IMG/VR virus record: IMGVR_UViG_2859799533_000007
DNA from: a virus
Lineage: Duplodnaviria; Heunggongvirae; Uroviricota; Caudoviricetes
DNA: 23,282 nucleotides
Direction: 5' to 3' (one strand)
Shown here in pieces: positions 1,154-23,282 of the stretch. The notes beneath the pieces were generated by a model. The model had not been told where the DNA came from. It saw nothing but the letters and a program-made list of their open reading frames with translations, and searched no databases. Position numbers and translations under genes: made by a program. Every line of letters starts with the position of its first letter. Position 1 is the first letter of the stretch.

Positions 1154-3000
1154 GCATAATTGCCAATCTCAACGTAAATATCATATGTATCGCCGGATGT
1201 GTTGATCCAGGCGAAATTCGTTAATCCGACGGCTGTACGCTTCCACAAAGCCCCGGTAATTCCTTTGGGGTTTCCATTGCCTGCTCGTAGAACCAGTTCT
1301 GAAATGCCTGCCTGATGTGGGGAACCGACGTTGTAACCAGCGCCACCAATCAATGCGATGTAAACGATGGAACTCGCTTGTGGCATGGTAACCGTAGCCA
1401 GTTTGAACCACCCAGCCCCGCCAGAGAAAGACATCGTTACTGAATTTAAAGTACCAATATCTTTCGGCGTTAATGTTATATCCGCAGTCAATGCTTTTCC
1501 GTTAACTTTTCGGTTAGATGGCACCCTGCTATTCGCATTGTCATTGGCTGCTTTAACTGCTTTTGGCGTTGCGGCCAGCGATTCACTGGTGCTATCAACA
1601 GCACTGCTAAGTTTCACAACACCTTTAGTTGTAAGGCTTGCGTCTTCCATCGCAACTGCACCGGCAATCTCTTCAGCACGATCAGCAGCAGCTTCCGCAC
1701 GGGTCGCAGCGGATTCAGCAGTAGTTTTGCTCTGAGATGCTGCCGTCGCACTGCCTGCCGCCTCTGTTGCCTTCGTGGATGCCGTCGTGGCGCTGCTCTT
1801 CGCTGCTGACGCTTGTCTGGTCGCCTCATCTTTTGAAGCAGACGCCGATGATGCCGATGACGCCGCCGAACTGGCGGACGATGCGGCAGCCGTTTTTGAG
1901 GATTCTGCGCTGGTTTCCGACGCTTTCGCGTTCGTTTCGGATGTCTTCGCTGCGGAAGCAGACCTCGCTGCTGCGCTGGCCTGTTCAGTGGCTTCGCCAG
2001 CCTTCGTTGTGGCTGTTGAAGCAGACGATGCGGAGCTTTCTGCCGATTTTCCGGCGGCGGTGGCACTGGCTGAGGCCTGCCCGGCACTTGTTGACGCTGC
2101 ACTGGCAGACGACGCAGCCGCTGTTTTTGAGCCTGCCGCAGCTGAGGCACTCTGTTCCGCTGCCGTTTCAGAAGACCTGGCGTTTGTCTCAGACGTTTTT
2201 GCCGCCTTCGCAGAATTTGCTGCCGCCGTTGCCGAGGAAGCTGCGCTGCTGGCGCTCGAGGCTGCGTTCGTTTCTGATGATTTTGCCGCCTCTTTTGAAG
2301 CCGACGCATCCCGTGCTGAAGTGGCTGCTTCTGACGCTTTCGTGGTCGCGGTGGATGCAGAAGTGGCTGCTGATTGTTGTGACGCTGCCGCATTCGTTTC
2401 TGACGTTTTCGCCGCACCGGCACTGGTAGCCGCCGCGCTTTTTGAGGACTCTGCAGCGGCAGCACTTTTTAATGCTTCAGTGGCCTTTGTTGATGCCGTT
2501 CCTGCGCTGGAAGACGCTGACTGAGCCGACGACGCGGCCTGTCCGGCTGACGTGCTGGCGGCACGTGCTGAGGCTGCAGCATCGGTTGCATGAGTTGCCG
2601 CCTCGCTGGCTGATTTTTTCGCGGCTGCCGTATTCTGTGCAACCGCGGAGGCGTTACGTGACACCTCTTCCACCATCTGCTCAAAGCGGCGCAGTGCCTC
2701 CGGTCGGACATCATCCTCCGTCATGGCACCGAGAAAATCATTCAGCGTACCTGGTCTGGAACCTTCATAGACGGTAATGGTCCCGGCATGTGAAGGCGGA
2801 AAACCTTCAACCAGCAGGGTGACGCTGTACTGACCATGCTCAACATCCATGCTGTAACGTCCGGCTTCATCCGGATTTTCAGAGGCCACCGTGTTCACCA
2901 CCACCGTGCTGCTGGTTCGTCTGGCCTTCAGCACAATGGTGCAGTTCTGTACTGGTTTTCCTGTGCCATCTTTAAGCACGCCAGAAATTTTTACTGTCAT
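1154..3000 (-). pseudogene. stf: Side tail fibre gene (lambda Stf-like), 3' end removed by IS1
   Basis: N-terminus MTVKISGVLKDGTGKPVQNCTIVLKARR… closely resembles lambda Stf. The ORF runs into IS1 at 1153 and its last ~6 codons and stop (1132-1134) are IS1 sequence. Confidence 0.85.
1668..2643 (-). repeat. Ala/Ser/Thr-rich low-complexity coding repeats inside stf
   Basis: Reiterated motifs such as AAKTSETNA… and SASSAS… in the translation; they create long spurious ORFs in other frames and on the opposite strand. Confidence 0.7.
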
Positions 3001-3010
3001 ACTTTTCCAC

Positions 3011-3046
3011 CAATAAAAAAAGCCCGCAGCAGTGACGCCACGGGCT
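3011..3046 (-). terminator. Candidate intrinsic terminator between lom and stf
   Basis: On the minus strand AGCCCG…CGGGCU stem (6 bp, 14-nt loop) followed by a U7 tract (plus-strand A-run 3015-3021). Confidence 0.45.
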
Positions 3047-3151
3047 TCAGGACAGTGTAACTTTACGTTTCCTCAAACGCAGTTCACCCCATAAAGTGGA
3101 TGAACCTGCGTATCATAACAATATTTACAGAAGATAAATCGGCGTCTGTTG

Positions 3152-3751
3152 TCAGAAACGGTATCCGATACCAACAATAAATGCATCCGTTCGCCAGTCG
3201 CCACTACCGGAACCTTCATAAGCAAGGTCAACGGCCACGGATTCGGTCGGGTTAAACTGCACGCCAGCCCCCCACGCCAGAGAGGTATTGCTGTGGCGAC
3301 CGTCATCACTTCCGGTCAGCACGTCGTGCGTTTTCCCCTTGTTGTCAGTTACGCGGAGATAATCCCCGGAGAAAGTCGACACACGGCTGTAAGCCACACC
3401 CGCCATCGCATACGCGCTGAACCATTCATTCACGCGTACAGACGGCCCCGCCATCACGCTGAACCAGCGGTTACGCACGGAATCTTCATGCCAGCGGGTA
3501 TCGCTGTAGCGCGTTTTTTGCTCATCCTCAGCATTGGCATAACTGAAGGACGTAATCAGCCCCAGCGCGTCCGTAAACTCATAACGGTATTTCACGTTAA
3601 TCCCGTTCAGATCATCACTACCGGGAACGTTCGTCGAGGCATGGAGATACCCCGCGCTCAGCGTGGACTGATGTTCTGCTGCACTCGCTGGCGTAGCAGC
3701 GGCGACCTGCCAGACTACTGCGGACAAAATAACAGCACATAATTTACGCAT
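3152..3751 (-). CDS. lom: Lom-like outer membrane beta-barrel protein (Ail/Lom/PagC family); a lambda moron
   Basis: 199-aa ORF with a signal peptide (MRKLCAVILSAVVWQVAAATPASA), alternating beta-strand pattern and C-terminal …IVGIGYRF; same position as lom in lambda, between J and stf. Confidence 0.88.
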   Translation of the reverse strand: MRKLCAVILSAVVWQVAAATPASAAEHQSTLSAGYLHASTNVPGSDDLNGINVKYRYEFTDALGLITSFSYANAEDEQKTRYSDTRWHEDSVRNRWFSVMAGPSVRVNEWFSAYAMAGVAYSRVSTFSGDYLRVTDNKGKTHDVLTGSDDGRHSNTSLAWGAGVQFNPTESVAVDLAYEGSGSGDWRTDAFIVGIGYRF

Positions 3752-3775
3752 AATTACCTCTCGCTTTTCTGCAAT

Positions 3776-3799
3776 AAAAAAGGCGCCATTTCTGGCGCC
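3776..3799 (-). terminator. Intrinsic terminator after J
   Basis: Minus strand GGCGCCA-GAAA-UGGCGCC (7-bp GC stem, 4-nt loop) followed by U6. Confidence 0.65.
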
Positions 3800-3818
3800 C
3801 GTATCTGGGTTATAAAAT

Positions 3819-6800
3819 TCAGCTAATCGTGATGCCTGCAGTGGCTTTCTTCATCACCACAACCAGCAAATCGCTGATACTTGCTGTGGGATACCAGTTA
3901 TTTACCAGCCATGCTGACACCGAAAACTCCAGTGTCATGTGACCGTGACCGGCAGGCATATCAATAACACCACTGTAAATCAGCGTATTATCCAGCGCGG
4001 TACGGTTATAAATTTCAGCACCGTTTTTCCGCACTATCAGACGGCATGAGGAGTAAATATCAGTATGCTCTTTCTCATGTTTAGCGCCGCTGAATGCCAC
4101 CGCCGGAATAACAATCTGCCGGTCAAACGGCTGATCGTCATAAACCCTGACGGTAATGGTTCCTGATGGCCACCGCTCTGGTGCACGGGAGTCCCGGGGG
4201 AAAGCTTTGCCCACTGTTTTAACGAGATCGCCTTCAATCTGGTTCGCGGACAATTTTCCCAGAACCCGACAGTTCTCGTTAATAGTGACGTTGTTGAGCG
4301 TCCCGGAGTTCGCATTCACGTTACCGCTGATATCGGCATTTTTCGCCGTCAGCCGCCCGTCCGGTGTCAGGGAAAATGCCGGAGGATTACCGCCGCTGGT
4401 AATGGTGGGAGCCGTCAGATATTTCAGGAACACTTCATTCATAAATATCTGATCGCCCTGACCAACAAACATCGGCTTTGTGTTGCCATTCGCAGGATTA
4501 ATCATCGCAATCCTGTCTGCCGCCAGCAGCACCTGACTCTGCATTCCTGCTGGCGTATTCTCAATACCGGCACCGATACCCGCAATATAAAGGCGTCCGT
4601 CCTGCATCTGCTGCAGTTTCACGGCCCACATGCTGTTCAGGTTATTATTTGTATCAACCTGAACTTTCTGTATCTGCTGGATTGCCGCACTCTGATTTTC
4701 CAGTTTTTTATTGACGGTCTGCGTGATTTCATTGCTGACATTCGTAATGGACGTCCTGATTTCAGCCAGGTCCGGCGCAAGCTGACCGTTATCAATCTGC
4801 GTCCACAGCTCCTGGGCCAGATGTGTTTTCCCGATTTCTCCTTTGAAAAAATCCAGGTAACCTTCCACATCATCGCTCGCCCGACCGACAGCCTCCACGA
4901 ATGCCGATTTGCCAACAGTATTCACACTGCGGATATAAAAATAATAATCATGGCCCGGTTTGATATTGATACTGGCAGCTATCCAGTACAGCGCCGAGCC
5001 AAGATAGCGGGCTGCGGTTTCAACCTGCCTGATATCCGCAATCCGCTTTTCCGAGAACCAGAACTCAAACTGTACCGTCGGGTCATAAACGGCAAGATGT
5101 GGCGTTGCGGTTATCTGAAAATAGCCCGGCGTCAGCTCAATCCGCGACGGTGCTGCCGGTGCGGCAATCCGGAAGGTGGTGGTGGCCGGTTCGCCCTGCT
5201 GGCCATAACTGTTAATTGCCCTGACTGTCAGGGTGTATTCCCCGAGCGGCAGACCACTGAAACGATGCTCTGTATCCGCAGTGATAGCGGTGGTCACCAG
5301 ACGGCTGTCTTCTCCGCTTCCGCTGGTCAGTCGCAGACTGAAGCGCACCCCCTTCACCACCCGCGGCGTGTCCCATTTCGCCTGTGCCAGATACTGGCCG
5401 TCAGCTGCGCTCACCTCCACCGTCAGGTGCTGCACTGCCGGTGGGATGACGCTGTTCAGGGAGCCTGACTGCGGCTCAAAGCGGGCACCGTTATCCACGA
5501 TGGCTTCTTTTTCCGGTACGTGCTGCACCGCCGTGATGGCAAAGGTGCCGTCCGTGTTTTCCCGGACGGAGACACAGCGGAACAGGCGACGGCGCAGTGA
5601 CGGCAGGGAGAGTCCCCACACCCCGTATGTCTCCACACCATCAGGCAGGGTACTGACCTGTATCCGGTCCGGCGCGGGGTGTGCGGTGATGTCCACACTC
5701 ACCGGCTTACCGCTGCCGTTAATCAGGTTCACCGCCGATGTACCTGTCTCCGGCAGGGTAACCTCACGGTCCAGCGTCAGGGTGCGGGTGGCAGCATCAA
5801 TGGACAGGACACGTCCGCCGGTCAGGGTCCCGGCATAGTCATTATCACAGATTTCAATAATGTCACCGGGTGTGTGCCGCAGCCCCTGAGACCCGAGCGT
5901 GAAGTCCACCGTCTGCGTTTCCAGCAGTTCGGTCTTTATCACCCACAGTCCGGCACGGTGGGCCTGACCGCGGCTGGTACAGCCGAACGCGTCCATCTTC
6001 AGCAGATTGCGCCCGTAGCGCAGTATGGCTTCCGGGTCTTCCACCAGTTCCGTGGAGGTCTGCCAGCCGTTCTGCGGGTCGGTGTAATTCACCTCCACCG
6101 CCGTGTGCCGGTCCTTCAGGGCACTGAAGCTGTAGCGGAACCCCACGCCGTTATCATCCACCACCACATCGCTGTTGGTGTACGGCCACACCACATCCGA
6201 CAGGCGGTCCTGAACAAACGTCAGCATCTGGCCGTTCCATACCGGCATACAGCGCATCGCCGAGCAGAAATCACTGAGAACATCCCACGCCTTACGCTGT
6301 TGTGCCAGGTACGCATTGAAGGTCATCCGCGGCTCGGTGCCCCCGAAGCCATCCGGCACCATCTGGTCGCAGTACTGCCCGATGGCATACAGCGCCCACT
6401 TGTCCACATCCGCCGCCCCCAGACGTTTTCCCATGCCGTAGCGCGGGTGAGTCAGCATGTCCCACAGACACCAGGCCGGATTGTTGCTGTATGCCGGTTT
6501 CAGACTGCCGTCCCAGATACCACTGTACGTGCGTTTTTCCGGGTCATAGTTTGACGGCACCTGGATGATGCGACCGCGGATATGGTAGTTCACCGTCATC
6601 TGCTGGCCGCCGAACTGCTCCGCATCCACCTGCAGCCCCACAATGGCCGTGTTCGGGTAGCACTGTTTCACATCGATGATTTCGGTGTATGACGACCACA
6701 GCGTCTTATTCTGCAGCTGGTCCGTGGTGCTGTCCGCCGTCTCCCTGACCATCCGGATGTTAAAGGGCCGGGGAGGCAGATTATCCAGAATCACCGAGGC

Positions 6801-17328: not shown

Positions 17329-18833
17329 TCATGGCATGGCCATGAGCATTTTCACGTCCGCATCACCGTCTGCTGACGTCTGTGACACGCCACCCCGCAC
17401 CGCTGCCGGTGAATGATTCGCCATGAAATGTTCAAACAGGGCGGTTGTGGATGCAGAGACCGGTTCGGCCTTACCTGATCCCGCAGCCAGCACCGCCCGG
17501 GCGTTCTCCACGGTCATTCCCGGGCAGGCCGCCAGTTTTTCAGCCTGCGCTTCTGCCCCTTTTGCCTCATCCAGGGCCATGATCTGATCACGAAGTGAGG
17601 GCCCGGCATCCGCCAGTGGTGCAGCCGCCAGGATCGGGCGGGCTTTTTCCACCGTCATCTCCGGCATCGCCGCCAGCGTTGCCGCCAGTTGTTCACGACC
17701 GTTCGCTTCTTCACACGCCATAATGCGATCGGCTTCACTCTGCGCGGATGCCACCGGCTGCTGCGGTGCCGCCGCGGCCAGAATCGCCCGGGCCTGTTCA
17801 ACGCTCATGCCCTGTTGCCCTGCCAGCATCGTGGCAAGCTGTTCACGTCCTTTCGCTTCCTGGCATGTCAGGATCCCCATCACTCGCTGGTTCTCCTGCA
17901 CGGCGGCTTCCGTTGCAGTTAATTGCGGCATAGTGCCTCCTCTGACATTACTGTTCAGCGCCGTGGCCATCACACTGATGGCATCCGACGCATTGATTAA
18001 TTCATCCGCCAGCCCGGCCTCAATGCCGGACTGACCTTCAAAAACAGCGGCCTCTGTTCCCGTGACTGCATCAACAGACAGACCGGTAAACATCGCCACT
18101 TTTTCGGCAAACATCCGGCGCGCCGCATCAATCCGCTGCTGCATGTCCTGGCGAACCTCTGCCGGCAACGCTTCAAACTGATTGCCATCCACCTTGTGCG
18201 CCCCTGAGTAAATCAGCGTGATATCCACACCGGCCTGCGCCAGATGACCGGCATAGCTGACATGGCTCATCATCACGCCAATGGAACCGATACGGGATGT
18301 CTGGGTAACCAGCCGTCGGGAGCAGGCCGACGCCAGCAGCATGGCCGCAGAACAGGCCGTGTCATTACACAGTGCCCAGACCGGCTTCTGCTGCCGGAGG
18401 CGGTAAATCATGTCAGCGCAGTCAAACACGCCGGCGGCCTGCCCGCCCGGACTGTCAATGTCCAGCAGTATGCCCCGCACCTGGCTATCTGCCATTGCCT
18501 GCTGAAGACAGGTGACAATGCCGTCATAGCCAGTCATTCCGGAAAATGGCCGCATCCCCCCAGCCGGTGCACCAGCGTGCCGGTCACCGGCAGTACCGCA
18601 ATACCGTTCACCACCCGGTAAACACGGGCCGGTCGTTTACCTCCGGCCATGTACTCGTCCGTTTCAGCCAGCATCCCGGGAGCATCAAGCTGTACCTGCT
18701 GTTGCGGTACCGAAAGACTTGCTGCCCCCATCTCGCGCCCCAGCGCGCAAAAGAAAACCCGCGCATAGGCGGGCTCCAGAAGCAGCGGTTCATTGAATGC
18801 TGCTGCAATAATGTGTGAAAGATTACGTCTCAC
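17329..18833 (-). pseudogene. C: Head maturation protease C with nested scaffold Nu3 (S49/ClpP-like), frameshifted
   Basis: N-terminal segment (…AAFNEPLLLEPAYARVFFCAL…) is in a different frame from the rest (…SGMTGYDGIVTCLQQA…KPVWALCNDTACSAA…). The frames join at the C6 run at 18556-18561. Confidence 0.85.
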
Positions 18834-19595
18834 GTGGTGTTGTCTCCTCTTCCGGCCTGCGACTCTCCGCTATCTGCTGCTGATACGCCTGCGCTATCCA
18901 CACCGGACGTGAGAGTCCGGCTTTTTCCCGCTCTGCAGATTCCCTGACCTGCTGGCAGAAAATGTCCTGATAATCCTCGCCCATCAGCGCCAGCTCTTTC
19001 TCATACGTGCTCAGTCCGGCCTCAATGCGCATCACTGATTCCTGAACCTCCTTGAGCCCGTCAATGGCCATTCTTCCGGCTCCAATCCACTCAGCCCGTG
19101 ACCAGGCTGATCGCGCCTGATAAAAATCAAACCGTGCCCGTGGCGGACGAATAATCCCCGAAGAAGTGCCTCTTCCAGCCAGCAGGAAAACATCTGCGTG
19201 GCCAGCCGGGACGCAATAAATTTTCGCCGCCCCATAAAATAGCGCCACGACTCATTGGCGGATGCGCGGGCACTTGAGTAACTGACCTTCGAGTAATCAC
19301 GGGACAACTGTTCGTAGGAAACGCCAAGACCGGCGGCGATATACCGCAGCAGCGCCTGTTCAAGCGCCGAAAATCCATTGTCTGAATCCTGCGCGGTCTG
19401 AAGTTTCAGATCATCACCGGGGAAAAGGTGCGGAATTTTGACACCGCCCAGCATCACGCTATTCGTGTCATACCAGGTGGAGAACTTATCCAGAATATTA
19501 ATAAGCGGATTATCCTTCTGCCCCTGCGGCGCACCGGCGATATATTCAAAGGCCTTTTCGGTATCAAGGTCACTTTCAATCGTCGCTGCATACAT
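18823..19595 (-). pseudogene. B: Portal protein B, 3' half only, with an internal frameshift
   Basis: Two frames carry portal-like sequence and join at the C4 run 19156-19159. Only ~257 codons are present (lambda B is 533 aa); upstream of 19595 the frame reads AT-rich non-coding sequence. Confidence 0.75.
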
Positions 19596-19783
19596 CGCCT
19601 TTATGAAAAGACAGGAAAAAATAAAATTTAAAAACAGTACATTACGAATGCTCAGACCTATCGTTTAAAGGAGTCGCAATACACACTGCAATACACGATT
19701 ATTTATAAGATGAGCGGCATCCGTCATAAAGCTGGTGGATGCTTTTTCTATGCATATATGCACAGTTTTAGTGGGCGTTAATG

Positions 19784-19807
19784 TCGATATAGGGATCCCC
19801 ATATCGA
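19784..19807. repeat. 24-bp near-perfect palindrome TCGATATAGGGATCCCCATATCGA (operator-like)
   Basis: Differs from its reverse complement at one symmetric position pair only. Confidence 0.6.
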
Positions 19808-20025
19808 GATTGGATACCAGGCTTTTTTAATCAGGCTGGTGGGCTTTACCTGTTTTGTATGAGTGGTCATCATGACCATGTCATAACAAAAACCCCATAT
19901 TCGTGGTTTTTCTGTGTCGGGCTATTCTGTCGTTGCTGTGCTGATTTGGCTGGTGGGCTGAATCATCATTACGGCGATGCAGCTATGTAGACGTTCCGGC
20001 CTCCTCAAATTGAGGATTGTGGAAG

Positions 20026-20187
20026 AATCAATGGGTTAGTCTTACTTTCCCGACATCCCCCAATGGGGGGTTTCGAAACAATCAATAGCTTAGGCTTACT
20101 TCCCCGATTTCCTGCATTGCAGGTTTTCGAAATAATCAATGGGTTAGGCCATCGTGCAATTTTGCACTTTGCCAGCCAGCGCAATGT
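20026..20187. repeat. Tandem array of three 54-bp direct repeats, each with an internal GC-rich hairpin
   Basis: Units begin AATCAAT at 20026, 20080 and 20134. Units 1 and 2 share ~40 of 54 positions, with the hairpin arms changed in a compensatory way (CCCCC-AAT-GGGGG versus CCTGCA-T-TGCAGG); unit 3 diverges after position 15. Confidence 0.7.
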
Positions 20188-20397
20188 CGCGTTATCAGTC
20201 CTCAGATGTGAGGGATGTAGCCAGCTTTTCCCCCAGTGGGGGATATCCAGCACCGACGGCTTAACTGTGCGTGCCAGCACAAGGTAGCCTTGAACTACTT
20301 ACTGCATCCCATCTTACAGGCCGTGCCTTCCTGCTTAACTTTTTGCAATGCAACAAGTCAGCCAGCGCAATTTTGCGTTATCGGGAATATCAGCAAG

Positions 20398-20679
20398 TTA
20401 CCGCCGCAATCGTTCCGGCTTCTTCCACTGGTAAGTATTTTTCGCGCTCTCCCTCCGTTGTTGAGAACGGCGACGATATGCCAGCAACTCAAGGACTCTT
20501 GTTCGTATGTTGCGCATATCCACGCCGTTAAGCTCAATACCGTCACGGCGCATCACCTCAGCCACTACACGCACATAATTATCTGCGGTCACGCTGTCCG
20601 GCTGCGTGGCCTGTTCGTCATGCTGCTTGCTGATTCCACAAGCACGGCGGATTAATCGCAGTATTTCGGATTCAGTCAT
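20398..20679 (-). CDS. Hypothetical small basic protein (93 aa)
   Basis: ATG-initiated ORF with coherent charged composition (MTESEILRLIRRACGISKQHDEQ…); weak RBS; I do not recognise a homologue. Confidence 0.4.
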   Translation of the reverse strand: MTESEILRLIRRACGISKQHDEQATQPDSVTADNYVRVVAEVMRRDGIELNGVDMRNIRTRVLELLAYRRRSQQRRESAKNTYQWKKPERLRR

Positions 20680-20803
20680 AGCGTACTACGTTACTTATCT
20701 TTATTCGGCTGCAACTTATCCGGTACGTTTCCGGCAGTTTCCATCAGATAATCGGACAGCTGAGGTGTACTGGCAATAGCGGACACTACCATTTGTTCTT
20801 TTT

Positions 20804-21622
20804 TTAAGCAGCCATCTGATGATATTTTTCCCTGAAGGCTGCCGGGGAGATATTCCCCAGACGAGAGTGACGACGCTGACGATTGTAGAAAATCTCAATG
20901 TATTCCCGTATTACTGAGATGGCTTCATCCCGGTTATTAAAACGATAGTGGCTCAGGCTCTCATTTTTCAGCGTTCCCCAGAAGCTTTCCATCGGAGCGT
21001 TGTCGTAACACTGACCTTTACGCGACATTGATGTTTTCAGACCAGACTGCTCCTGTATGACCCGGTAATCGTATGCGCAGTACTGTGAACCTCGATCAGA
21101 GTGGTGGATTAGCCCGGCAGGTGGGCGCTGGCTCCTGAGCGCCATAAACAGGGCTTTACCTGTCAGCTCTTTTGTCATGCGCTCTCCCATGGCGTAGCCG
21201 ACAATTTCGCACGTATAAACATCTTTGATGCCAGCGAGGTACAACCATCCCTCCTGTGTGGCAACATACGTCAGGTACGCCACCCAGACCTGATTTGGTG
21301 CTGTAGGAGCGAACGTCTGGTTCAGCAGATTTGGCGCAACTGGCAGATTGTGGTTCGGGTTCGTAGTCGCTCTGAACTTGCGTTTCTGCTTACAGCGTAG
21401 CCTTAGCTCCTTACGAAGACGTGCCAGTCGGTCACGACCAACGATGATGCCATTCTCTGCCAGCTCCGTCTGGAGCCGCCGGGTTCCATATGTTTCGCGA
21501 GTGCGGATATGTGCCACCTTAATCTCCAGTTTTAGCCGCTCATCACTTTGTTTTCTGTCTGAGGGTTCATGCTGTACCCAGTTGTAATAACCGCTCCTGG
21601 ATACACCAAATACCTGACACAT
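20804..21622 (-). CDS. IS3-family transposase OrfB (DDE domain)
   Basis: 272-aa ORF …HHSDRGSQYCAYDYRVIQEQSGLKTSMSRKGQCYDNAPMESFWGTLKNE…; the frame is open upstream toward the frameshift window. Confidence 0.9.
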   Translation of the reverse strand: MCQVFGVSRSGYYNWVQHEPSDRKQSDERLKLEIKVAHIRTRETYGTRRLQTELAENGIIVGRDRLARLRKELRLRCKQKRKFRATTNPNHNLPVAPNLLNQTFAPTAPNQVWVAYLTYVATQEGWLYLAGIKDVYTCEIVGYAMGERMTKELTGKALFMALRSQRPPAGLIHHSDRGSQYCAYDYRVIQEQSGLKTSMSRKGQCYDNAPMESFWGTLKNESLSHYRFNNRDEAISVIREYIEIFYNRQRRHSRLGNISPAAFREKYHQMAA

Positions 21623-21657
21623 CGCTTCAATGGGAAATTGTTGTCGCCATTGTTCGA

Positions 21658-21960
21658 TTAACGCGTATTTTTCAGCGACTCCTGTGCAAAATACGCTGTT
21701 GCTTTTTTTAATATATCTCGCTCAAGGCGAGCTTCATTTAACGCCTTACGCAGTTGCAGAATTTCAGATTCCAGTTCAGCCACCGTGCGGGAACCAGGAG
21801 TACCGAGCCCTTTTCTGGCGGCGGTAACCCATTGTCCTAAAGTGCCTTCAGGAAGGGATAATCGGGAAGCGCCTTCACTGATCGAAAGTTGATTTTCAAG
21901 AACCGTTCTGACAGCTTCGGCTTTGAACTCTTTAGAGTAACGTTGGTTTTTTCTGCTCAT
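21658..21960 (-). CDS. IS3-family transposase OrfA (helix-turn-helix plus leucine zipper)
   Basis: 100-aa ORF MSRKNQRYSKEFKAEAVRTVLENQLSISEGASRLSLPEGTLGQWV…; an A7G slippery run (plus-strand T7 at 21703-21709) sits near its 3' end. Confidence 0.9.
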   Translation of the reverse strand: MSRKNQRYSKEFKAEAVRTVLENQLSISEGASRLSLPEGTLGQWVTAARKGLGTPGSRTVAELESEILQLRKALNEARLERDILKKATAYFAQESLKNTR

Positions 21961-22115
21961 TATTAGCTCCTTCTGATGCCATTCTATTTCAGGAAGGAGT
22001 GTCCGTTAAACTCAGGCTACCTCAATCAGCGCCAGTCAGTCAGCCGGAGCAAAAACAGAAGCCCCACTCATTCCGGAACAACCTTCTTAATAACCCATTT
22101 CAACGAGAAAATCCT

Positions 22116-22385
22116 ATGTCAGAAATAAAATCGCTGGTCACTGCTGAGGCAGTGAAGGAAGTCCTGCGCTCTGAAGAAGTCCGGAGCGCACTGAAACAGC
22201 AACTTCGGCAGAACCTTGAGGCGCGTCTTGATGCAGAAGTGGATTCAATTCTGGATGAACTGCTGGGCGCACCGACTGTTCCGGAGCCGGAAGGCATTGC
22301 GGATGACAGTGCTGTTTCAGATGGCGTCGGGTCTCAGCCTGACGGTAGTGAAGGGCCTCAGCCTGACGGCGAAATGATGATGTAA
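22116..22385 (+). CDS. Hypothetical acidic protein (89 aa) upstream of the holin
   Basis: ATG at 22116 within the longer track ORF; MSEIKSLVTAEAVKEVLRSEEVRSALKQQLRQNLEARLD… with an acidic C-terminus; weak RBS. Confidence 0.45.
   Translation: MSEIKSLVTAEAVKEVLRSEEVRSALKQQLRQNLEARLDAEVDSILDELLGAPTVPEPEGIADDSAVSDGVGSQPDGSEGPQPDGEMMM

Positions 22386-22620: not shown

Positions 22621-23282
<662 letters not shown>

What the first reader, a model, noticed from the sequence alone, without database searches (positions are those of the whole stretch)
20398..20679. Orphan 93-aa basic protein gene between IS600 and the hairpin array
It is the only plausible coding sequence in the 1.1-kb junction segment and I cannot place it in any family from sequence alone. 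Its position directly upstream of the repeat and palindrome array makes it a candidate DNA-binding or regulatory protein for that array.
Basis: inference. Interest (0 to 1): 0.35.

Follow-up and report, generated by a model that had tools for sequence, protein, structure and literature searches.

The report
Conserved end gene of a phage satellite
The 93-codon ORF is a real, widely conserved gene of unknown function that marks the right end of PICI-type phage satellites (it is the counterpart of gene c1505 of the model island EcCICFT073); here it survives in a satellite remnant stuck inside a decayed lambda-like prophage and cut off by IS600.

Summary
The ORF at 20398-20679 (-) exists as described: 93 aa, pI 10.6. 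It is not an orphan. More than 1,000 homologues exist. It matches phrog_1561 end to end, occurs in 1,575 of 5,426 complete E. coli genomes, and is under purifying selection (dN/dS about 0.25).

The 1.1-kb "junction segment" is the right end of a helper-embedded PICI (HE-PICI) inserted in the lambda-type portal gene. The portal remnant starts at Pfam position 238, and the published HE-PICI doubled att motif lies about 81 bp from the junction. IS600 removed the rest of the satellite.

Primer mapping shows the orthologue in EcCICFT073 is c1505, next to rppA. Published work indicates that overexpressed c1505 does not block lambda. An island lacking c1504-07 (gene plus array) still transfers at 10^6-10^7 per ml.

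No known fold or family matches. In 10 of 12 loci the stop codon lies inside an IHF-consensus box, followed by a hairpin whose structure, not sequence, is conserved.

Best guess (about 0.35): a small bipartite nucleic-acid-binding accessory protein acting on that adjacent module. Interest is modest.

The parts
20398..20679 (-). 93-aa gene. It belongs to the uncharacterised family phrog_1561 = EcCICFT073 c1505 = RefSeq WP_000140265.1. The first 57 residues are acidic and helical. The last 36 form a basic helix plus the near-invariant tail Y-x-W-K-K-P-E-R-L-R-R.
   Evidence: ORF. Family. Selection (dN/dS about 0.25). Model (pLDDT 74, all helical). Orthology to c1505 by primer mapping.
20691..20760 (-). 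3' remnant (last 22 codons plus stop) of the satellite's lambda Nu1-like small-terminase gene, cut by IS600. In intact relatives it ends 11 nt before the 93-aa gene with no Shine-Dalgarno sequence.
   Evidence: Translation ...LSDYLMETAGNVPDKLQPNKDK* equals the C-terminus of L001 terS. Pfam Phage_Nu1 match. Homology to L001 stops at 20760.
20761..22031 (-). IS600 (orfA 21658-21960, orfB 20804-21622). It replaced the rest of the satellite (cos, capsid, primase, integrase).
   Evidence: 99.8% identity to annotated IS3-like IS600 elements. Pfam HTH_Tnp_1 and rve. No satellite homology beyond it.
20353..20400 (-). First IHF-box/hairpin unit. TAACTTGCTGATA is one mismatch from the IHF consensus and begins with the gene's stop codon. 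The hairpin CGCA-AAAT-TGCG lies 23 nt further on.
   Evidence: The same arrangement is seen in 10 of 12 loci. Repeat D3.
19996..20157 (-). Three tandem 54-nt units. Each holds a perfect IHF consensus (WATCAANNNNTTR at 20026, 20080 and 20134 on the + strand) and a palindrome whose stem sequence differs from unit to unit.
   Evidence: The units are 88-96% identical over about 50 nt to a segment inside lambdoid roi genes.
20158..20352 (.). Spacer with further palindromes and degenerate unit fragments (e.g. GCAATTTTGC, CCCCCAGTGGGGG, CAGCCAGCGCAATGTCGCGTTATC).
   Evidence: D2, D3, D5, D8, I1. Sequence.
19780..19811 (.). Near-perfect palindrome TCGATATAGGGATCCCCATATCGA. It occurs once per element in most related PICIs. 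Its binder is unknown.
   Evidence: (I3).
19676..19695 (-). HE-PICI-specific doubled att-arm motif, TGTATTGC-N4-TGTATTGC.
   Evidence: Exact single match in the window, none expected by chance. Motif and its spacing of 81 +/- 2 bp from the attP centre are from PMC10111431.
19596..19612 (.). Approximate attR crossover: the junction between the satellite and the interrupted portal gene.
   Evidence: The portal reading frame resumes at ...KAMYAATIESD. It lies about 81 bp from the doubled motif. The portal remnant starts at Pfam Phage_portal_2 position 238.
19032..19595 (-). 3' part of the lambda-type portal gene B of the helper prophage. It lacks its N-terminal part, and the ORF pattern suggests it is also frameshifted here.
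   Evidence: Pfam Phage_portal_2, positions 238-354 of 354, E=2e-30. RefSeq calls the counterpart 'phage portal protein, missing N-terminus'. Split ORFs.

Best explanation
Identity (confidence about 0.95). The ORF is the terminal gene of the late zone of a Gram-negative phage-inducible chromosomal island (PICI). Here the PICI is a helper-embedded PICI (HE-PICI) integrated in, and co-oriented with, the portal gene of a lambdoid prophage, at the site B:Phage_portal_2:~240. IS600 has deleted everything upstream of the last 22 codons of the satellite's Nu1-like terS. Only terS', the 93-aa gene, the IHF-box/hairpin array and attR remain. The gene is the orthologue of c1505 of the model island EcCICFT073, where it lies next to rppA.

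Mechanism (inferred; about 0.35). The protein has two parts: an acidic helical N-terminal domain and an arginine-rich C-terminal helix with an invariant aromatic-basic tail. It is made as the last cistron of the satellite's late/packaging transcription unit. I propose that it binds nucleic acid at the module that starts at its own stop codon, namely an IHF site followed by a structure-conserved hairpin. The target could be the IHF-bent DNA or the hairpin at the 3' end of its own transcript. Binding would tune what happens at the satellite's right end, for example 3'-end formation of the late transcript, or read-through across attP into int in the excised or concatemeric form. This would be a modulating function. 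It is not essential for excision, packaging, transfer or integration.

Shown: gene reality, family, context, orthology to c1505, coupling to the IHF box and hairpin, and dispensability (from the literature). Inferred: nucleic-acid binding, the target, and the effect.
For: Context:
- Identical gene order in 48 complete E. coli genomes.
- HE-PICI doubled motif at 19676-19695 (PMC10111431).
- The portal remnant starts at profile position 238.
- IS600 identity and the end of satellite homology.

Orthology:
- CFT073 L006 3374-3655 lies just after RppA (2660-3094), which matches RppC 6HLK at 5e-31.
- The insert of pJP2220 ('pBAD18 c1505') maps to 3317-3690.

Coding and selection:
- dN/dS is 0.09-0.49.
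- The C-terminal motif is conserved through synonymous changes.
- Shine-Dalgarno sequences are present in most loci.

Link to the module:
- The stop codon lies inside an IHF box, followed by a hairpin, in 10 of 12 loci. These cover five integration sites, several upstream gene types (Nu1-like terS, rppA, inverted terS, protease-capsid fusion) and helpers of different kinds. This points to a function tied to the satellite end and host IHF, not to one helper.
- 16 of 22 distinct units keep a perfect stem of 5 bp or more, against 0.65 expected, with at least 5 unrelated stem sequences.

Protein features:
- C-terminal 36 residues have pI 11.8, with R69-R71, Y83, W85 and K86-R92 invariant or nearly so.
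- Near-absent from isolated phage genomes: one weak hit among 50,697 records. It is mainly a satellite gene.
Against: - No recognisable DNA- or RNA-binding fold was found. The AF2 model has only moderate confidence (pLDDT 74) and has no Foldseek match in PDB or BFVD.
- EcCICFT073 c1504-07::cat removes the gene and the whole array, yet the island is used as the standard marked island and transfers at about 10^6-10^7 TFU/ml. Any role is therefore dispensable with lambda and phi80 in the laboratory.
- The first unit after the stop codon is identical in loci whose proteins differ in the basic segment (SQQRRESAKNTYQ versus VELYREKEKITYH). There is therefore no protein-site co-variation.
- Adjacency may reflect only common inheritance of an 'end module'.
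- The same unit occurs in roi genes of phages that lack this protein.
Confidence: 0.35

Rival explanations
1. The protein is an accessory protein-protein effector aimed at a host or helper component, for example a regulator, IHF itself, or a helper type that has not been tested. Its basic tail would be a docking peptide. On this view the neighbouring array is unrelated and is bound by IHF and other factors.
For: - It is found in satellites and almost never in isolated phage genomes.
- The invariant C-terminal peptide is conserved at the protein level, as a short linear motif would be.
- No nucleic-acid-binding fold was found.
- PICIs carry other small host-directed regulators, such as PerC, ProQ and Icd-like proteins, in the same elements.
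- It is dispensable for transfer.
Against: - Overexpressed c1505 did not reduce lambda plaques. According to the paper's text, only c1503 did.
- The fixed position at the very end, and the stop codon embedded in the IHF box across divergent elements, are not explained.
- No partner is identified.
Confidence: 0.3
2. The protein is a packaging accessory factor. It would be a partner of the satellite's Nu1-like TerS or Rpp, or a modulator of the second, inverted cos site.
For: - It lies directly after terS (11-nt gap, no Shine-Dalgarno sequence, which suggests translational coupling) in the L001-type element that matches the window.
- It lies directly after rppA and cos2 in EcCICFT073.
- It belongs to the late zone.
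Against: - It is also found after an inverted terS, after a protease-capsid fusion with no terS, and in Citrobacter and Salmonella PICIs that lack a lambda-type cosN.
- The c1504-07 deletion leaves packaging and transfer efficient.
- The window has no cosN.
Confidence: 0.1
3. The protein is a recombination accessory factor. It would act like a directionality or architectural factor, working with IHF on the attR arm during excision or integration.
For: - It is the last gene before attR.
- IHF boxes and other palindromes lie between it and the crossover.
- The HE-PICI paper leaves open an 'unknown DNA binding protein' for the att motif.
Against: - The array lies 300-800 bp from the crossover, which is far for an intasome.
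- AlpA at the other end is the assumed excisionase.
- The island lacking the gene and the array still excises, transfers and integrates.
- The distance to att varies widely between loci.
Confidence: 0.1
4. The ORF is not a functional gene. It would be a chance reading frame, or a relic conserved only because the DNA is a cis-acting site.
For: - In this window the gene has lost its operon, so it may be silent.
- No function has been shown for any family member.
Against: - dN/dS is about 0.25, with dS up to 1.9.
- Length and frame are kept in more than 1,000 sequences.
- The C-terminal motif is kept through synonymous changes.
- Shine-Dalgarno sequences are present.
Confidence: 0.02

Closest known systems
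c1505 of EcCICFT073, the model Gram-negative cos-type PICI of E. coli CFT073 (RefSeq WP_000133413.1); PHROG family phrog_1561
   Same: - Same length, 93 aa, with about 80% nucleotide identity.
- Same C-terminal motif.
- Same position as the last gene before the IHF-box/hairpin units and the att end.
- Full-length HMM match to phrog_1561.
   Different: - In EcCICFT073 the gene follows rppA and an inverted cos2, and the island sits between roxA and phoQ.
- Here it follows a Nu1-like terS, and the satellite sits inside a prophage portal gene and is truncated by IS600.
- The function is unknown in both.
Helper-embedded PICIs (HE-PICIs) at site B:Phage_portal_2:~241 (Tommasini, Mageeney and Williams 2023, PMC10111431)
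   Same: - Integration within, and co-oriented with, the lambda-type portal gene at profile position about 238-243.
- The doubled TGTATTGC motif lies about 81 bp from the crossover.
- The late zone holds capsid, decoration and terS genes in the intact E. coli counterparts.
   Different: - In the window only the last 1.2 kb of the satellite is left. The integrase, AlpA, Bro and replication zones are gone.
- The paper does not single out this gene or the IHF/hairpin units.
Rpp (RppA/B/C), the PICI protein that redirects helper TerS to the PICI cos site (PMC6739421; PDB 6HLK)
   Same: It is a small PICI late-zone protein encoded next to cos, and it is the immediate neighbour of this family in EcCICFT073.
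   Different: - It is a different protein. RppA is L006 2660-3094, 144 aa, with a winged helix-turn-helix.
- The 93-aa protein has no sequence or fold match to 6HLK.
- It does not block lambda when overexpressed.
Lambda N arginine-rich motif and boxB hairpin (nut site)
   Same: - Both are small basic proteins with RRR...RR...QWK-like strings.
- Both have a neighbouring 'conserved box plus short hairpin' unit.
   Different: - hhalign probability is 0.3%.
- The motif is at the C-terminus here, not the N-terminus.
- The loops are 3-4 nt and A/T-rich, not GNRA-like pentaloops.
- The conserved box is an IHF consensus, not boxA.
- This is a resemblance only. Knowledge of N and boxB is from memory of the literature.
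IHF site inside the roi gene of HK022-type lambdoid phages; RIP/BIME-1 elements (an IHF site flanked by palindromic units)
   Same: - The array units are 88-96% identical over about 50 nt to roi codons 41-59, including the IHF consensus and the adjacent imperfect palindrome.
- The design 'IHF site plus palindrome', placed at the end of a transcription unit, recalls RIP elements (from memory).
   Different: - In roi the unit is single, lies inside a coding sequence, and is on the opposite strand relative to transcription.
- The palindromes are not REP sequences.
- The original Roi paper (Clerget and Boccard 1996) could not be read here.

Membership tests
phrog_1561 / EcCICFT073 c1505 family (uncharacterised) | Full-length sequence similarity to the family profile | tested here: met
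   phrog_1561 E=1.2e-55, residues 1-93 on profile positions 1-93 of 93. 977-1088 homologues.
phrog_1561 / EcCICFT073 c1505 family (uncharacterised) | Orthologous position: last late-zone gene of a PICI, followed by IHF-box/hairpin units and the att end | tested here: met
   Window. Relatives. c1505 identified by primer mapping.
phrog_1561 / EcCICFT073 c1505 family (uncharacterised) | Conserved as protein-coding | tested here: met
   Pairwise dN/dS 0.09-0.49.
[quoted passage not shown] | Satellite end abuts an interrupted lambdoid late gene in the same orientation, at the defined profile position | tested here: met
   The portal remnant 19032-19595 (-) covers Phage_portal_2 positions 238-354. 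The 93-aa gene and the terS remnant are also on the minus strand.
[quoted passage not shown] | Doubled motif tgTGTATTGCantgTGTATTGCa 81 +/- 2 bp upstream of the attP centre | tested here: met
   Exact match at 19676-19695 (-), about 81 bp from the junction at about 19596-19612 (motif). The second copy, 132 bp beyond the centre on the int side, is absent because that end is missing.
[quoted passage not shown] | Integrase of the HE-PICI clade, AlpA and primase (integration, Bro and replication zones) | tested here: not met
   These are absent from the window. Homology to the intact E. coli element stops at 20760, where IS600 begins. The part of the E. coli counterparts that was fetched (L001, L002) holds BRO-N, Icd-like and primase genes, but the integrase end was not fetched. 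The window therefore holds a remnant, not a functional HE-PICI.
Rpp (redirecting phage packaging) proteins | Sequence or structure similarity to RppA/RppC (N-terminal winged helix-turn-helix, 144-153 aa) | tested here: not met
   No hit to 6HLK by sequence, profile or fold. The neighbouring CFT073 gene does hit 6HLK at 5e-31.
Rpp (redirecting phage packaging) proteins | Blocks lambda reproduction when expressed alone | not testable with these tools
   The literature states that only c1503 did so among the cloned post-ori genes, which included pBAD18-c1505.
Lambda N-type antiterminators (arginine-rich motif binding a boxB hairpin) | Homology to N, or an N-terminal arginine-rich motif with a cognate GNRA-like pentaloop hairpin preceded by boxA | tested here: not met
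   hhalign probability 0.3%, E=0.21. The loops are 3-4 nt and A/T-rich, and the box is an IHF consensus.
Known DNA-binding or defence families (Pfam, NCBIfam, PADLOC) | Significant profile match | tested here: not met
   Nothing reaches a curated cut-off. Best hits: Arabinose_bd E=0.03-0.1, and BrxA E=0.0034 in 5 of 32 members.

The most novel reading that the evidence does not exclude
The c1505-family protein and the unit that starts at its stop codon (an IHF site plus a structure-conserved hairpin) would form a previously undescribed cis/trans end module of enterobacterial PICIs. An arginine-rich, N-like protein would recognise hairpin structure beside an IHF-bent site. This would control transcription or processing across the att junction, for example coupling or insulating late transcription and int in the excised form. 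The tandem arrays could also act as IHF or Roi-type protein sinks that affect the helper.
Probability: 0.12. Interest if true: 0.6.

Novelty: new member of a known kind. Interest (0 to 1): 0.3.

Why it matters
The family occurs in about 29% of complete E. coli genomes. It sits in the best-studied Gram-negative satellite, EcCICFT073, yet it has never been assigned a role and is routinely deleted to insert markers.

Recognising it as the conserved right-end landmark of PICIs and HE-PICIs has three uses:
- It helps to delimit satellites and their remnants in genomes, as in this window.
- It points to a simple set of experiments on an unexplained module that is shared across satellites with different integration sites and helpers.
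- It flags that engineered 'c1504-07::cat' islands lack a conserved gene and the IHF/hairpin array.

For this window itself, the practical result is an annotation: a satellite remnant in a decayed prophage, not a new system.

Tried and rejected
- **Family searches.** Pfam, NCBIfam and PADLOC scans of the protein and of 32 family members found nothing above the cut-offs.
- **Solved structures.** PDB searches by sequence and by profile found nothing.
- **Structure prediction.** The AF2 model (pLDDT 74) searched with Foldseek against PDB and BFVD gave no match with E<=0.001.
- **Exhaustive homology search.** phmmer over 1.84 billion representatives found only 39 clusters, nearly all fragments or variants of the same narrow family; three weak partial matches fall in long, apparently unrelated proteins. 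A profile search added no annotated relatives.
- **The noncoding segment as a cos site.** Rejected. There is no lambda-type cosN in the window. In intact relatives cosN lies upstream of terS or rppA, with an inverted second copy just upstream of the 93-aa gene in the roxA/phoQ-site islands (L004-L006; also seen in L012).
- **The ORF as Rpp.** Rejected. RppA is the neighbouring gene.
- **The upstream 'terminase small subunit' as Rpp.** Rejected. It is a full-length Nu1 homologue.
- **Homology to lambda N.** Rejected at 0.3% probability.
- **Rfam.** No family matched at gathering score in the window.
- **Promoter and terminator scan.** Counts were not above chance. A 9/12 match straddles the IS600 end (20776-20748) and is only a weak lead for a hybrid promoter.
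- **GTDB genome scan.** It returned a single locus.
- **Klebsiella phage P12620-1.** The hit lies in an unannotated stretch of a poorly annotated record and was uninformative.
- **The palindrome ATGGGGATCCCCAT as the protein's operator.** It occurs once per element and is absent from several loci that carry the gene.
- **The Roi paper.** Clerget and Boccard 1996 was not available.

Full report
**Observation**

The minus strand of the window carries an ATG-to-TAA ORF of 93 codons at 20398-20679. The product has pI 10.55. Residues 1-57 are acidic (pI 5.2), and residues 58-93 hold 13 Lys/Arg (pI 11.8).

On one side lies IS600, at 20761-22031, 99.8% identical to annotated IS600 (Pfam HTH_Tnp_1 and rve). 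On the other side lies a repeat- and palindrome-rich stretch.

Two points in the finding need correction. First, the ORF is not an orphan. Second, between the ORF and IS600 lie the last 22 codons and stop of another gene (20691-20760).

**The gene is real and conserved**

- A word-indexed search found 977 homologues, and a profile search found 1,088. All are named 'hypothetical' or 'prophage protein', and none has a Pfam domain.
- The protein matches PHROG family phrog_1561 (unknown function) over its whole length, E=1.2e-55.
- The DNA is found in 1,575 of 5,426 complete E. coli genomes. Two of the listed hits are 100% identical (58 records are at least 99% identical).
- An exhaustive phmmer search of 1.84 billion cluster representatives found only 39 clusters. 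The family is therefore abundant but phylogenetically narrow: Escherichia/Shigella, Salmonella and Citrobacter.
- Codon alignments of ten loci give pairwise dN/dS of 0.09-0.49, with dS up to 1.9.
- The near-invariant C-terminal peptide Y-x-W-K-K-P-E-R-L-R-R is kept through synonymous changes. For example, CCGGAACGATTGCGGCGG in the window corresponds to CCAGACAGGCTGCGGCAG in Citrobacter. Selection therefore acts on the protein, not on an overlapping DNA site.
- Most loci have a Shine-Dalgarno sequence. In the element type that matches the window, the gene starts 11 nt after the stop of the upstream gene with no Shine-Dalgarno sequence, which suggests translational coupling.

**What the surrounding segment is**

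In 48 complete E. coli genomes the same 1.2 kb is the right end of a satellite-like element. The gene order in the stretch fetched (from the BRO-N gene rightward) is:
- BRO-N protein, Icd-like protein, DUF4222, primase, SSB;
- major capsid, head decoration, AlpA-like HTH;
- 'terminase small subunit', then the 93-aa gene;
- about 800 bp without genes;
- a lambda-type portal gene 'missing N-terminus', followed by the rest of a lambdoid head and tail operon on the same strand.

This is the configuration that Tommasini, Mageeney and Williams described as a helper-embedded PICI (HE-PICI). Two of their diagnostic features are met in the window:
- The portal remnant (19032-19595) begins at position 238 of Pfam Phage_portal_2. 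Their site class is B:Phage_portal_2:240-243.
- Their HE-PICI-specific doubled motif, TGTATTGC-N4-TGTATTGC, occurs exactly once, at 19676-19695. That is about 81 bp from the junction, as they report.

Homology to the intact E. coli element stops at 20760, where IS600 begins. Nothing beyond IS600 is satellite DNA. The window therefore holds a remnant made of terS', the 93-aa gene, the noncoding array and attR. It sits in a prophage that, judging by the ORF pattern, appears to be frameshifted in both the portal remnant and the protease gene.

**Relation to the model PICI**

The family is also the last gene of chromosomal PICIs between roxA and phoQ in E. coli Nissle 1917, O157:H7 and CFT073.

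In CFT073 this island is EcCICFT073. The gene upstream of the 93-aa orthologue (L006 2660-3094, 144 aa) matches RppC (PDB 6HLK) at 5e-31, so it is RppA, also known as c1503.

I mapped the primers in Table S5 of Fillol-Salom et al. 2019 onto the CFT073 sequence:
- The insert of pJP2220 ('pBAD18 c1505') spans L006 3317-3690. It contains the whole orthologue (3374-3655).
- The allele 'c1504-07::cat' deletes 3106-4001. This removes the inverted cos2, the 93-aa gene and the complete IHF/hairpin array.

The paper states that only c1503, among the cloned post-ori genes, reduced lambda plaque formation. The c1504-07::cat island is their standard marked island. It transfers at about 10^6-10^7 TFU/ml with lambda or phi80 cosN mutants as helpers. 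The gene and the array are therefore dispensable for induction, packaging, transfer and integration under those conditions. The protein is not a lambda interference factor on its own.

**Packaging signals**

The lambda cosN sequence GGGCGGCGACCT lies upstream of rppA, or upstream of the Nu1-like terS, in the intact relatives. A second, inverted copy lies immediately upstream of the 93-aa gene in the roxA/phoQ-site islands examined (L004-L006). It is absent from L001/L002, the element type that matches the window.

The window itself has no cosN. The noncoding array is therefore not cos.

The upstream 'terminase small subunit' is a full-length homologue of lambda Nu1, including the C-terminal part that in lambda contacts gpA (lambda knowledge from memory).

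**Diversity of contexts**

The gene keeps its place near the right end while its upstream neighbour changes:
- Nu1-like terS in the same orientation (L001, L004, L005);
- rppA (L006);
- an inverted terS (L012, L014);
- a ClpP-like protease/capsid fusion, in an HE-PICI inserted in a terminase gpA gene (L011);
- an AlpA-like regulator, followed by about 540 bp with no annotated gene (L013);
- proteins of unknown family in Citrobacter and Salmonella PICIs that lack a lambda-type cosN (L008-L010).

The integration sites include the portal gene, gpA, roxA/phoQ, tRNA-Ile near mug, and clpS. This independence from helper type and packaging gene argues against a dedicated terminase partner. It argues for a role tied to the satellite's own end or to the host.

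**The adjacent array**

Window 19996-20157 consists of three tandem 54-nt units. Each holds a perfect IHF consensus, WATCAANNNNTTR. These are 3 of only 4 matches in the 23-kb window, where 0.57 are expected. Each unit also has a palindrome whose stem differs from unit to unit: CCTCA.., CCCCC.., CCTGC...

Degenerate units continue up to the gene. In 10 of 12 loci the stop codon TAA is the first three bases of the box, and a hairpin starts 19-23 nt further on. Of 22 distinct units, 16 keep a perfect stem of 5 bp or more with a 3-4-nt loop at that offset. Shuffles give 0.65 on average and at most 5. There are at least five unrelated stem sequences. Pairing potential is therefore conserved, not sequence. 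G-T and A-C mismatches occur on both strands, so the strand cannot be inferred.

Unexpectedly, the units are 88-96% identical over about 50 nt to a segment inside the roi (antirepressor-type) gene of HK629, VT2-Sakai and other lambdoid phages. The segment covers codons 41-59, on the strand opposite to the 93-aa gene. From memory, an IHF site in HK022 roi was described by Clerget and Boccard in 1996. That paper was not available here.

**Function**

Nothing known matches the protein:
- Pfam, NCBIfam and PADLOC gave no significant hit.
- PDB searches by sequence and by profile gave none.
- The AlphaFold model (pLDDT 74, pTM 0.49) has helices at 3-13, 18-21, 28-45 and 52-81. It has no Foldseek match in PDB or BFVD.
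- The C-terminal string RRR..RR..YQWKK recalls the arginine-rich motif of lambda N, and hhalign aligns exactly those segments, but with probability 0.3%. I treat this as a compositional resemblance only.

Weighing the evidence, my best guess is a small nucleic-acid-binding accessory protein acting on the adjacent IHF-box/hairpin module, with a modulating role at the satellite's right end (about 0.35). The evidence considered was:
- restriction almost entirely to satellites rather than isolated phage genomes;
- independence from helper type;
- the stop codon embedded in an IHF box;
- the basic tail;
- dispensability;
- no lambda interference.

The main rival is a protein-protein effector unrelated to the array (about 0.3). 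A packaging partner and a recombination accessory are less likely (about 0.1 each). A non-gene is practically excluded.

**Verdict**

The 'junction segment' is the attR end of a known kind of element.

It has no direct evidence, and it is tempered by published deletion data and by IHF being the obvious binder of the array.

Novelty: a new member of a known kind. Interest: modest (0.3). The IHF-box/hairpin module and its link to roi are the most curious by-products.

Noticed in passing
window 19996-20157 (and degenerate copies up to 20400): There are three tandem 54-nt units. Each has a perfect IHF consensus site and a palindrome whose stem sequence differs between units but whose pairing is kept. 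Equivalent units occur in PICIs at other integration sites (16 of 22 units have stems of 5 bp or more, against 0.65 expected).
   Followed up: partly
window 19995-20102 versus L007 (phage HK629 roi, locus 901-953) and about 60 other lambdoid phage records: The array units are 88-96% identical over about 50 nt to a stretch inside the coding sequence of the roi/antirepressor gene (codons 41-59, IRNPPMVVFEKINNLGLLRG). In roi the stretch lies on the strand opposite to the 93-aa gene. A satellite noncoding repeat is thus shared with a helper-type phage gene.
   Followed up: partly
L006 3298-3309 (CFT073), L004 11924-11935, L005 11925-11936; L012 3249-3949: The second, inverted cos site (cos2) of EcCICFT073-type islands lies just upstream of the 93-aa gene. 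Strain 2013C-4282 has an intact inverted Nu1-like terS beside it. This suggests that cos2 is the relic of an inverted cos-terS module.
   Followed up: partly
window 19780-19811: The near-perfect 24-bp palindrome TCGATATAGGGATCCCCATATCGA occurs once per element downstream of the gene in most related PICIs, including a Citrobacter one. It is absent from some. It looks like an operator for an unknown dimeric protein.
   Followed up: partly
window 17329-19595: The ORF pattern suggests that the helper prophage's portal remnant and its S49 protease gene (lambda C) are each split into overlapping reading frames. The E. coli counterparts are intact. Together with IS600 and IS911, this suggests a decaying prophage in a Shigella-like genome.
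   Followed up: no
window 20748-20776 (-): A sigma-70-like match (TTGCCA-17-GATTAT, 9/12) straddles the IS600 end and the terS remnant. It could be a hybrid promoter reading into the 93-aa gene. The count of such matches in the region is not above chance.
   Followed up: no
window 22116-22385 (+) and 22629-23282 (-): Beyond IS600 lies a DUF826-family gene (Pfam E=9e-37), followed by a truncated IS3-family transposase annotated as IS911 in Shigella plasmids. Neither belongs to the satellite.
   Followed up: partly
L001 9949-10332; L013 3051-3434: The HE-PICI late zone carries a second AlpA-like HTH gene (it matches PDB 8C3T and Pfam Phage_AlpA) just upstream of cos and terS. In EcCICFT073-type islands a 137-aa protein of unknown family occupies that position.
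   Followed up: no
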